Source of the DNA: Escherichia coli
Lineage (GTDB): Bacteria > Pseudomonadota > Gammaproteobacteria > Enterobacterales > Enterobacteriaceae
Reading direction: 5' to 3' (one strand)
DNA: 840 nt
NCBI RefSeq assembly: GCF_003334305.1
Contig: NZ_QOWS01000069.1
Shown here: positions 1 to 840 of the stretch, piece after piece
Position numbering within the stretch: the stretch's first letter is position 1
How the letters are laid out: each line of letters opens with the position of its first letter
Made by a program: the position numbers and the translations under genes
The notes under the pieces: generated by a model
Database searches by the model: none
The model's input: only the letters and a program-made list of their open reading frames with translations
What the model was told of the DNA's origin: nothing

Positions 1-651
1 GATTACGATTTCCTGTGCCGGATGGCGGCGGAGGAAGGCATCTTCTTTTATGAGGAGCACGCGCAAAAAAGTACCGACCAGAGCCTGGTCCTGTGCGACA
101 CCGTGCGTTATCTGCCGGAGTCCTTTGAGATCCCCTGGAATCCGAACACCCGTACCGAGGTGAGCACCCTCTGCATCAGCCAGTTCCGCTACAGCGCACA
201 AATCCGCCCTTCTTCCGTGGTGACCAAGGACTACACCTTTAAACGACCCGGCTGGCCAGGGCGTTTTGATCAGGAAGGCCAGTACCAGGATTACCAGCGC
301 ACGCAGTATGAAGTGTATGACTACCCCGGACGTTTCAAGGGTGCCCACGGGCAGAACTTTGCCCGCTGGCAGATGGACGGCTGGCGAAACAACGCAGAAG
401 TGGCGCGCGGAACAAGCCGTTCGCCGGAGATATGGCCGGGACGGCGAATTGTGCTGACGGGGCATCCGCAGGCGAACCTGAACCGGGAATGGCAGGTGGT
501 GGCAAGTGAACTGCACGGCGAACAGCCACAGGCGGTGCCAGGACGGCAGGGAGCGGGGACGGCGCTGGAGAACCATTTTGCGGTGATCCCGGCAGACAGA
601 ACATGGCGACCACAGCCGTTGCTGAAACCGCTGGTCGACGGCCCGCAGAGC
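1..651 (+). other. C-terminal portion of the gp27-like hub domain of VgrG (phage late control D / Phage_GPD-like region), with linker
   Basis: Frame 1 translation of this segment contains DYDFLCRMAAEEGIFFYEEH, YTFKRPGWPGRFDQEGQYQDYQRTQYEVYDYPGRFKG and NREWQVVASELHGEQPQ. I recognise these as matching the conserved N-terminal two-thirds of enterobacterial VgrG. The domain boundary is placed by eye, not by profile alignment. Confidence 0.6.
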
Positions 652-840
652 GCTGTCGTGACAGGACCGGCAGGCGAGGAAATCTTCTGCGACGAACATG
701 GTCGCGTGCGGGTGAAGTTCAACTGGGACCGTTATAACCCGTCAAACCAGGACAGTTCGTGCTGGATCCGTGTGGCACAGGCGTGGGCAGGCACCGGTTT
801 TGGCCACCTGGCGATACCGCGTGTGGGTCAGGAGGTGATT
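1..840 (+). CDS. vgrG: Type VI secretion system spike protein VgrG (TssI), internal fragment; partial at both 5' and 3' ends
   Basis: Seen in sequence: frame 1 is open for all 280 codons with no stop, and it continues past both window edges, which is why it is missing from the ORF track. Translation begins DYDFLCRMAAEEGIFFYEEHAQKSTDQSLVLCDTVRYLPESFEIPWNPNTRTEV and ends VVTGPAGEEIFCDEHGRVRVKFNWDRYNPSNQDSSCWIRVAQAWAGTGFGHLAIPRVGQEVI. Established knowledge, recalled from memory and not searched: the DYDFL.R.A.EEGI motif is typical of the phage late-control-D/gp27-like part of VgrG, and G.V.V.F.WDR ... SCWIRVAQ ... G...PR.GQEV is the conserved gp5-like OB-fold signature. Codon usage and GC-rich third positions fit an enterobacterial coding region. 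Confidence 0.88.
652..840 (+). other. Start of the gp5-like OB-fold domain of VgrG (Phage_base_V-like), continuing past the 3' window edge
   Basis: Frame 1 translation AVVTGPAGEEIFCDEHGRVRVKFNWDRYNPSNQDSSCWIRVAQAWAGTGFGHLAIPRVGQEVI. The GRV.V.F.WDR and SCWIRVAQ..AG..FG....PR.GQEV pattern is the hallmark of the gp5 N-terminal OB-fold in VgrG and phage baseplate spike proteins. The boundary is approximate. Confidence 0.65.

What the first reader, a model, noticed from the sequence alone, without database searches (positions are those of the whole stretch)
1..840. Window lies entirely inside a T6SS vgrG spike gene; variable C-terminus and cargo genes are out of view
VgrG is the trimeric spike of the type VI secretion system. 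Its conserved gp27/gp5-like core, which is what this window covers, is followed by a beta-helix and often by a variable C-terminal adaptor or toxin domain. The genes immediately downstream are typically a chaperone (DUF4123 or DUF1795 families), a PAAR protein, an Rhs or other effector, and its immunity gene. Any novel biology at this locus would be in that unseen downstream part. The window establishes the locus type but shows only known, conserved sequence.
Basis: partly seen in the sequence, partly recalled or inferred. Interest (0 to 1): 0.4.

Follow-up and report, generated by a model that had tools for sequence, protein, structure and literature searches.

The report
Internal piece of E. 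coli vgrG
The window is an intact internal stretch of a well-known Escherichia coli type VI secretion spike gene (vgrG), most likely the copy next to the RhsE toxin element, and it is ordinary, widely conserved sequence.

Summary
Frame 1 is open for all 280 codons. It matches NCBIfam VgrG/TssI at 328 bits (cut-off 186) and Pfam Phage_GPD plus Phage_base_V. It aligns to residues 152-432 of the P. aeruginosa VgrG1 crystal structure (E 3e-49). The DNA matches 3644 of 5426 complete E. coli genomes (best 99.8%). It corresponds to codons 153-432 of a 703-aa vgrG.

Ten of the 11 best hits lie between yncH and an RHS core gene, the classical RhsE element. This is an island outside the T6SS core cluster, with no hcp, no chaperone gene and no separate PAAR gene. 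One hit (99.4%) lies at cusS, upstream of a DUF1795/DcrB gene and a prePAAR-PAAR-Rhs toxin.

The paralogues are 90-100% identical over vgrG nt 1-1500 and unrelated after that. The window (nt 457-1296) therefore cannot identify the locus or the cargo with certainty. Its alleles show exchange between paralogues.

In the closest relatives the RhsE module is usually decayed. Five of 10 vgrG copies carry a frameshift or a stop inside the window's span, and the window has neither.

Nothing else is present: no RNA family match, no meaningful repeats, and the long antisense frame is a codon-usage by-product. Verdict: already known, low interest.

The parts
1..840 (+). Internal segment of a vgrG (tssI) open reading frame, frame 1; codons 153-432 of a 703-codon gene in the closest relatives
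   Evidence: No stop in 280 codons. TIGR03361 328 bits against a cut-off of 186. 99.8% identical to annotated vgrG in NZ_CP116176 and NZ_CM143728.
1..525 (+). C-terminal half of the gp27-like hub module (Pfam Phage_GPD, model positions 127-303 of 305)
   Evidence: 7e-39. In the full-length relative the domain spans residues 28-327. Aligns to P. aeruginosa VgrG1 4mtk from residue 152.
526..693 (+). Segment between the gp27-like module and the OB fold (window residues 176-231); no Pfam model, but aligned to solved VgrG1
   Evidence: The alignment to 4mtk_A is continuous over residues 152-432.
694..840 (+). First two-thirds of the gp5-like OB-fold domain (Pfam Phage_base_V, model positions 13-57 of 75), cut by the window end
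   Evidence: 2.5e-07. In the full-length relative the domain spans residues 384-450.
65..70 (+). A6 homopolymer run, intact here. Four close relatives (H5, H6, H7, H8) have A5, which frameshifts vgrG and gives a stop at codon 206
   Evidence: the genes are annotated 'frameshifted'.
136..138 (+). TGG (Trp198), intact here. Relative H9 has TAG, annotated as an internal stop
256..256 (+). C instead of G (Pro238 instead of Ala). All nine other near-identical copies compared have G; the more divergent cusS-locus paralogue of H1's genome has C, and the allele is common overall
   Evidence: The exact 81-nt context occurs in 484 records.
742..750 (+). Three linked polymorphic sites (T742, A745, G750; Ser400-Asn401 versus Ala-Asp). 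The alleles are distributed across loci, not by locus
   Evidence: With site 256 they give all four allele combinations among the window, H1_RhsE, H1_cusS and H3_cusS.
1..741 (-). Antisense open frame in codon register (247 codons, runs off the window). Judged not to be a gene
   Evidence: No NCBIfam or PHROG match. It is broken at different codons in different alleles and is explained by the scarcity of TTA, CTA and TCA sense codons.

Best explanation
The window is an internal, intact piece of an Escherichia coli (or Shigella) vgrG gene of the T6SS-2 type. It encodes residues about 153-432 of the spike protein: the second half of the gp27-like hub module, a connecting segment, and the start of the gp5-like OB fold.

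Inferred from the family: three VgrG chains form the spike that caps the Hcp tube and sits in the baseplate. The part in the window belongs to the platform that docks the spike on the machine. The cargo-specific part lies after the window, in the beta-helix end and C-terminal tail from about residue 500.

The most likely source (about 0.75-0.8) is the orphan copy between yncH and the RhsE element (historically vgrE; VgrG2 of EHEC EDL933). That copy would carry the adjacent RHS core toxin, whose N-terminus bears a single PAAR motif. The machine would be the one encoded at the aspV T6SS island, whose own VgrG is 272/280 identical over this segment. The small downstream dsORF would give immunity.

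Shown here: the open frame, family membership, domain mapping, and the genomic context in near-identical relatives. Inferred: trimer assembly, which machine fires it, the cargo, and that the gene is full-length in the unseen source.
For: Open frame. NCBIfam VgrG models above their curated cut-offs. Pfam Phage_GPD plus Phage_base_V. P. aeruginosa VgrG1 structures 4mtk/4uhv at E 3e-49, colinear over residues 152-432. Matches in 3644 of 5426 complete E. coli genomes, best 99.8%; top protein hits are all E. coli or Shigella VgrG.

Ten of the 11 best hits lie at yncH-vgrG-RHS core-dsORF. The RHS core equivalog NF041261 scores 2756 bits. The Rhs N-terminus reads MSGKPAARQGD.

Sakai has a full T6SS gene set followed by hcp-vgrG-rhs at aspV, and its VgrG is 272/280 identical to the window protein. 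The C-terminal region of the RhsE-type VgrG is 74-80% identical to the island type, and both precede RHS core proteins.

Literature: EDL933 has three vgrG genes, with rhsE next to vgrG2 (PMC7216683). Delivery of E. coli Rhs-CT toxins needs vgrGO1 and eagR, and the antibacterial effect of tested Rhs-CTs depended on T6SS2 (Ma et al. 2017b, as summarised in PMC6730261).
Against: The source contig is not available, so neither the full-length ORF nor the neighbours of this particular copy were seen. No record is 100% identical. A cusS-locus copy is 99.4% identical, and alleles are shared between paralogues, so the locus assignment is probabilistic.

At the RhsE locus 5 of 10 closest vgrG copies are pseudogenes, and 4 of the 5 intact ones sit next to a disrupted rhs. 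Even an intact copy may therefore be part of a non-functional module.

The RHS core protein has no significant Pfam PAAR domain (E 0.11), so how it mounts on VgrG is inferred and was not shown here. I did not find the T6SS core cluster in the genome of the best hit.
Confidence: 0.9

Rival explanations
1. Same gene family but the other orphan paralogue: the cusS/nfrA-locus vgrG (vgrGO1 type, 633 aa). Through a different C-terminus it carries a class I prePAAR-PAAR-Rhs toxin stabilised by a DUF1795/DcrB (EagR) chaperone.
For: H3 at this locus is 99.4% identical, only 3 more mismatches than the best hit. The window's C256 allele is present in H1's cusS copy but in none of the RhsE-locus copies examined. 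The module was verified: DcrB/PF08786 at 1.7e-27, and prePAAR_I plus PAAR_motif in the Rhs N-terminus.
Against: Ten of the 11 best hits, including both 99.8% hits, are at yncH/RhsE. H1's own cusS copy differs at 18 sites, against 2 for its RhsE copy.
Confidence: 0.15
2. The window belongs to a dead gene: a vgrG pseudogene or deletion remnant whose lesion lies outside the 840 bases.
For: Decay is common at this locus. There is an A5 frameshift in H5-H8, W198* in H9, a vgrG-rhs deletion fusion in H66, complete loss of vgrG in K-12, and independent rhs frameshifts in H1, H2, H10 and H11.
Against: The window lacks both lesions seen in its closest relatives and is open throughout. All five relatives that are intact over the window span are intact over the whole 703 codons. 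Against H1's more divergent cusS-locus copy, 13 of 18 differences are synonymous.
Confidence: 0.15
3. It is a prophage or other contractile-injection-system baseplate hub/spike gene (gp27-gp5, P2 gpD/gpV type), not a T6SS component.
For: The Pfam families that match (Phage_GPD, Phage_base_V) are shared with phage baseplates. There is a weak PHROG hit, phrog_34729 of unknown function, at 7e-14.
Against: The T6SS-specific NCBIfam models score far above their cut-offs. No phage genes flank any relative. The core-cluster paralogue sits directly after hcp and the tss genes.
Confidence: 0.01
4. A second gene is encoded on the antisense strand (247-codon open frame in register with vgrG).
For: Only one stop in that frame in the window. 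In one allele (H4) the frame is open for 640 codons, where 5.4 stops would be expected under rhs codon usage (P about 0.004).
Against: No family match. The frame is broken at codon 400 in the window, at 400 and 405 in H1, and at six codons in Sakai, so it is not conserved among close alleles. The pattern follows from avoidance of TTA, CTA and TCA in a GC3-rich gene.
Confidence: 0.02

Closest known systems
E. coli Rhs-element Vgr protein at the RhsE locus (vgrE of Hill and co-workers, from my own knowledge; VgrG2 of EHEC EDL933, PMC7216683; for example WP_271292074.1, 703 aa)
   Same: 99.8% nucleotide identity over the whole window, and the same reading frame and domain order.
   Different: One amino-acid difference (Pro238 for Ala), which is itself a common allele in paralogues. 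The flanks of the window's own copy were not seen.
vgrGO1-eagR-Rhs-CT module of E. coli (Ma et al. 2017b, as summarised in PMC6730261; class I prePAAR effectors, PMC7773334), found here at the cusS locus
   Same: The N-terminal 1.5 kb of vgrG, including the window segment, is 90-100% identical. About 480 nt upstream is also homologous.
   Different: A different C-terminal region of about 130-200 residues, a DUF1795/DcrB chaperone gene, and a prePAAR-TMD-PAAR N-terminus on the Rhs.
VgrG of the E. coli T6SS-2 core cluster at aspV (Sakai ECs_0236, EDL933 VgrG3)
   Same: 272 of 280 residues identical over the window. The C-terminal region is related to the RhsE type, and it is likewise followed by an RHS core gene.
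   Different: 94.9% identity at DNA level with two indels. It is preceded by hcp and the tss genes, which the orphan copies lack.
P. aeruginosa VgrG1 (PDB 4mtk, 4uhv) and, more distantly, T4 gp27-gp5
   Same: A colinear alignment to residues 152-432 at E 3e-49, so the same hub, connector and OB-fold architecture.
   Different: A distant orthologue in another genus. The EAEC/CFT073 T6SS-1-type VgrGs (6sjl, 2p5z) are much further away (E 2e-5 and 5e-7), which places the window in the T6SS-2 lineage and not the T6SS-1 lineage of E. coli.

Membership tests
VgrG/TssI (NCBIfam TIGR03361, TIGR01646) | Whole-protein score above the curated cut-off | tested here: met
   328.1 bits against 186.35, and 238.9 against 121.8, even though only 280 of about 700 residues are present.
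VgrG/TssI | gp27-like hub module (Pfam Phage_GPD) | tested here: met
   Residues 1-175 match model positions 127-303 of 305, 7e-39. The N-terminal half of the module lies upstream of the window and is present in relatives.
VgrG/TssI | gp5-like OB fold following the hub (Pfam Phage_base_V) | tested here: met
   Residues 232-280 match model positions 13-57 of 75, 2.5e-07; cut by the window end.
VgrG/TssI | C-terminal trimeric beta-helix (Gp5_trimer_C, Val-Gly repeats) | not testable with these tools
   This lies beyond the window's 3' end. It is present at residues 467-576 of the 99.8%-identical relative.
VgrG/TssI | Sequence relationship to a solved VgrG spike | tested here: met
   4mtk_A/4uhv_A at E 3e-49 over residues 152-432, and 7q5p_A at 1.5e-48.
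VgrG/TssI | Uninterrupted full-length gene | not testable with these tools
   The window part is open, but the source flanks are unavailable. Five of the 10 closest RhsE-locus copies are intact, and five carry lesions that the window lacks.
VgrG/TssI | A T6SS core machine in the same genome | not testable with these tools
   The source genome is unknown. It is shown for Sakai and reported for EDL933 (PMC7216683). I did not find it in H1's genome by positional guessing.
RhsE-locus orphan vgrG (vgrE / EHEC VgrG2) | Near-identity to copies lying between yncH and an RHS core gene | tested here: met
   Ten of 11 hits at 99.2% or above are at that locus.
RhsE-locus orphan vgrG (vgrE / EHEC VgrG2) | Locus-specific C-terminal region (vgrG nt above 1500) and flanking genes | not testable with these tools
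   Paralogues diverge about 200 nt after the window end. The window holds no locus-diagnostic site, and its alleles are shared across loci.
cusS-locus vgrGO1-EagR-prePAAR-Rhs module | Near-identity of the window segment to copies at that locus | tested here: inconclusive
   H3 is 99.4% identical and shares none of the window's private differences. H1's cusS copy has 18 differences but shares C256.
Phage baseplate hub/spike (gp27-gp5, P2 gpD/gpV) | Best match to phage families and a prophage neighbourhood | tested here: not met
   The only PHROG hit is an unannotated family at 7e-14. No phage genes occur in any of the neighbourhoods examined.

The most novel reading that the evidence does not exclude
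The window is a recombinant between dispersed vgrG paralogues. It has an RhsE-locus backbone, but it carries the Pro238 allele otherwise seen in the cusS-locus copy. Sites 256 and 742 show all four allele combinations across loci. This would reflect ongoing gene conversion that keeps the machine-docking 1.5 kb of the orphan vgrG genes homogeneous (about 0.9 Mb apart on the chromosome), while the cargo-specific C-termini stay distinct.

A second reading that cannot be excluded is that the unseen source carries a new C-terminus or a new Rhs toxin tip.
Probability: 0.5. Interest if true: 0.2.

Novelty: already known. Interest (0 to 1): 0.08.

Why it matters
It matters little beyond correct annotation. 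The segment marks an E. coli T6SS-2-type vgrG-Rhs toxin-delivery island, a system already described genetically and bioinformatically.

Two practical lessons follow:
- An 840-bp piece of the vgrG core cannot tell which island or which toxin it belongs to, because the core is a dispersed repeat of about 2 kb shared at 90-100% identity between loci. The same repeat probably explains why many database VgrG proteins are "partial" (about 461-489 aa, some on contigs of only a few kb).
- The RhsE-locus module is frequently inactivated in natural isolates, so the presence of the gene does not imply a working weapon.

Tried and rejected
- **Rfam.** I scanned the window and the vgrG region of the closest relative with permissive thresholds and found no match.
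- **Repeats.** The window has only one 12-nt pair, consistent with chance, and no inverted repeats.
- **hcp upstream.** I tested whether the ~480 nt shared upstream of the orphan copies is an hcp remnant. It has no similarity to Sakai's hcp region, no ORF longer than 56 aa, no excess of promoter-like sites (3 against 3.4 expected) and one weak terminator-like hairpin.
- **Antisense frame.** I rejected the 247-codon antisense open frame as a gene.
- **T6SS core cluster in H1.** I tried to find it in the best-hit genome by position and landed twice in a large integrated resistance island. I used Sakai instead.
- **C256 (Pro238).** I first took it for a window-specific substitution. It is a common allele.
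- **PAAR in the RhsE-type Rhs.** Pfam gives only E 0.11 for the last 18 model positions, and PDB PAAR proteins give E 0.1-0.6.
- **RhsE-type toxin tip.** I looked for a known toxin domain and found no Pfam or PDB match.
- **Literature.** A search for gene conversion among E. coli vgrG genes found nothing specific.
- **Not run.** I did not run structure prediction or the large metagenome and genome scans, because sequence evidence was already decisive.

Full report

Yes. Frame 1 of the + strand is open through all 280 codons. The other five frames carry 1-10 stops each. An open frame of this length has a probability of about 7e-5 given the base composition, and it occurred in 0 of 20,000 shuffles. 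GC by codon position (64/47/71%) is typical of a GC-rich coding sequence.

The translation matches the following:
- NCBIfam TIGR03361 (TssI/VgrG) at 328 bits against a curated cut-off of 186, over profile positions 145-426 of 513, and TIGR01646 at 239 bits against 122.
- Pfam Phage_GPD at residues 1-175 (model 127-303 of 305) and Phage_base_V at residues 232-280 (model 13-57 of 75).
- Residues 152-432 of the solved P. aeruginosa VgrG1 spike (4mtk, 4uhv; E 3e-49), in a colinear alignment. The E. coli T6SS-1-type VgrGs (6sjl, 2p5z) are far more distant.

**2. Where does it sit?**

Megablast against 5426 complete E. coli genomes finds the segment in 3644 of them, with a median of two copies per genome. 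The best identity is 99.8%, and no record is identical. In the best hits the window is nt 457-1296 of a 2109-nt vgrG, that is codons 153-432 of 703. The full-length protein has Phage_GPD at 28-327, Phage_base_V at 384-450 and the Gp5_trimer_C beta-helix at 467-576. It has no toxin or DUF2345 domain.

Ten of the 11 hits at 99.2% identity or above lie at one chromosomal site: yncG-yncH, an AT-rich gap of about 820 nt, vgrG, RHS core gene, dsORF-e4, IS1/ISAs1 fragments, pptA. This is the classical RhsE element. In K-12 MG1655 the same site has no vgrG and only a 5'-truncated rhsE pseudogene.

It is an orphan island and not a T6SS core cluster:
- No hcp lies upstream, and the upstream DNA has no similarity to hcp.
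- No DUF4123 or DUF1795 gene is present.
- There is no separate PAAR gene.

The cargo is an RHS core protein (NF041261, 2756 bits). Its N-terminus reads MSGKPAARQGD, followed by DUF6531 and RHS repeats. Pfam's PAAR model reaches only E 0.11 on its last 18 positions.

**3. Can the window identify the locus?**

No. Hit H3 (99.4%) lies elsewhere, in the order cusS, vgrG (633 aa), DcrB-family gene, large Rhs, nfrA. The best-hit genome H1 has a copy there too, and strain KE55 has only that copy.

I verified that module. The small protein is Pfam DcrB/PF08786 (1.7e-27). From my own knowledge this is the family formerly called DUF1795, to which the Eag chaperones belong; PMC6730261 writes "eagR/DUF1795". 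The Rhs N-terminus has prePAAR_I and PAAR_motif, which makes it a class I prePAAR effector in the sense of PMC7773334.

Along the gene, the RhsE-type and cusS-type copies are 94-100% identical over nt 1-1400 and 90% over nt 1401-1500. Beyond that they are unrelated. About 480 nt upstream is also homologous.

A third copy lies in the T6SS-2 core island at aspV, shown here for O157:H7 Sakai as the tss genes followed by hcp-vgrG-rhs. It is 94.9% identical to the window in DNA and 272/280 identical in protein. Its C-terminal region is 74-80% identical to the RhsE type over nt 1501-1950. The C-terminus thus tracks the cargo type, while the window segment is common to all three.

This matches the published picture for EDL933: vgrG1 with eagR-rhsF, vgrG2 with rhsE, and vgrG3 in the island (PMC7216683).

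**4. Allele sharing between paralogues.**

The window differs from H1's RhsE copy at 2 sites and from H1's cusS copy at 18 sites. Its one non-synonymous difference from the near-identical copies, C256 (Pro238 for Ala), is present in H1's cusS copy. The exact 81-nt context of that site occurs in 484 records.

The linked sites 742/745/750 are also distributed across loci and not by locus. With site 256 they give all four combinations: window C,T; H1_RhsE G,T; H1_cusS C,G; H3_cusS G,G. That pattern is what exchange between paralogues would produce, though recurrent mutation is not excluded.

I put the locus assignment at roughly 0.75-0.8 for RhsE, 0.15 for cusS, and the rest for the core island or another site.

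**5. State of the gene.**

The window is intact, but the module is often not. Among the ten closest RhsE-locus copies:
- Four share a 1-nt loss in the A6 run at window 65-70, giving a stop at codon 206.
- One has TGG to TAG at window 136-138.
- Of the five with intact vgrG, four have a disrupted rhs. The lesions I located (H1, H2, H10) are all different: a 7-nt insertion, larger deletions and a 1-nt insertion. H11's is only annotated as a frameshift and lies beyond the stretch I fetched.
- Only the red-fox isolate H4 has both genes intact.

Strain FCI56 has a deletion joining vgrG at about codon 425 to an rhs fragment. Some of the single-base lesions could be sequencing errors. The A5 allele recurs in four isolates from different hosts and countries, which favours a real allele.

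**6. How it most likely works.**

The family assignment and domain map are shown here. The rest follows from established knowledge of VgrG (T4 gp27-gp5 homology, solved VgrG1 spikes) and from work on E. coli Rhs-CT toxins summarised in PMC6730261.

- Three chains assemble into the spike. The gp27-like platform, which includes the window's first 175 residues, docks on the Hcp tube and in the baseplate.
- The OB fold leads into the beta-helix needle.
- The tip and C-terminal tail bind the cargo. Here that is presumably the RHS core protein, through its N-terminal PAAR motif.
- Sheath contraction drives the loaded spike into a neighbouring cell, and the Rhs C-terminal tip acts as the toxin.
- The downstream dsORF is presumed to confer immunity.

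Because the window segment is 97% identical in protein to the core-island VgrG, the orphan spikes would be expected to fit the same T6SS-2 machine. This is inference.

**7. Other things looked for in the window.**

- No Rfam match was found.
- There are no meaningful repeats.
- The antisense frame in codon register is open for 247 codons. It has no family match, it is interrupted at different codons in different alleles, and it follows from the rarity of TTA, CTA and TCA codons.

**8. Verdict.**

The sequence is an ordinary, already known E. coli vgrG core segment. The only added value is the set of caveats: the locus and cargo cannot be read from this segment, the generic "chaperone plus PAAR" expectation does not hold at the most likely locus, and the module is frequently decayed. 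Interest is low.

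Noticed in passing
L001:16720-20935, L002:16720-20804, L005-L008, L014-L016 (RhsE locus of the closest relatives): In 9 of the 10 closest strains either vgrG or the adjacent rhs core gene is disrupted. The rhs lesions I located are all different, while four strains share the same vgrG A-run frameshift. The orphan module appears to be decaying repeatedly in nature.
   Followed up: partly
L004:13720-13860 and L013:32080-32220 (N-terminus of RHS core proteins): The RHS core proteins that follow the RhsE-type and core-island vgrG start MSGKPAARQGD and MGGKPAARQGD. 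This is a single PAAR motif matching only the last 18 positions of the Pfam PAAR model (E 0.11), followed by DUF6531. Papers call these PAAR-Rhs, but a complete PAAR domain is not detectable by Pfam. How such a stub caps a VgrG trimer is unclear to me.
   Followed up: partly
L004:17500-17928 (C-terminal tip of the RhsE-type Rhs, paired with dsORF-e4 at L004:17940-18335): The ~140-residue toxin tip after the DPxGL motif is glycine-rich (GGHAGLG, GIGGGINA, GGGVGGH). It has no Pfam or PDB match, and the dsORF has no NCBIfam match. It may be a membrane-active toxin, but I did not characterise it.
   Followed up: partly
L001:14065-14544 and L003:11065-11544 (upstream of orphan vgrG copies): About 480 nt of AT-rich (about 37% GC) non-coding DNA is conserved at 68-84% identity between the RhsE-locus and cusS-locus copies. 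It is not an hcp remnant, has no ORF longer than 56 aa and has no Rfam match. It may be a shared regulatory leader.
   Followed up: partly
window:1-741 (- strand); L004:11641-13560 (- strand): The antisense frame in register with vgrG is open for 247 codons in the window and for 640 codons in one allele (P about 0.004 under rhs codon usage). It is broken in other alleles, so I read it as a codon-usage by-product.
   Followed up: yes
L010:1-50000 and L011:1-50000 (NZ_CP116176.1 855-955 kb): The chromosome of the best-hit strain DETEC-E601 carries an integrated resistance and metal-tolerance island of more than 100 kb. It includes tet(A), sul1/sul2, OXA-1, TEM-1, aac(6')-Ib-cr, floR, mph(A), oqxAB, sil and pco operons, IncQ repC, and many IS26 copies. 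It is unrelated to the finding.
   Followed up: no
L017:6545-8427 and L017:10788-12110: In strain FCI56 the RhsE locus holds a vgrG truncated at about codon 425 and fused to an internal rhs fragment, with an IS1 upstream and a group II intron reverse transcriptase (ltrA) downstream.
   Followed up: no
P0002-P0120 (protein search): Nearly all of the top VgrG database entries are 'partial' proteins. Most of them are 461-489 aa long, close to the point (about codon 500) where the paralogues diverge. That fits short-read assemblies breaking at the end of the repeated core, though many of them sit on long contigs.
   Followed up: no
L001:23507-28505, L004:20499-24840: Several strains carry a second, tandem Rhs unit downstream of the first: a DUF3969 gene, an RHS core gene of about 1420 aa, and (in H1) dsORF-h1. 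It has no vgrG of its own.
   Followed up: no
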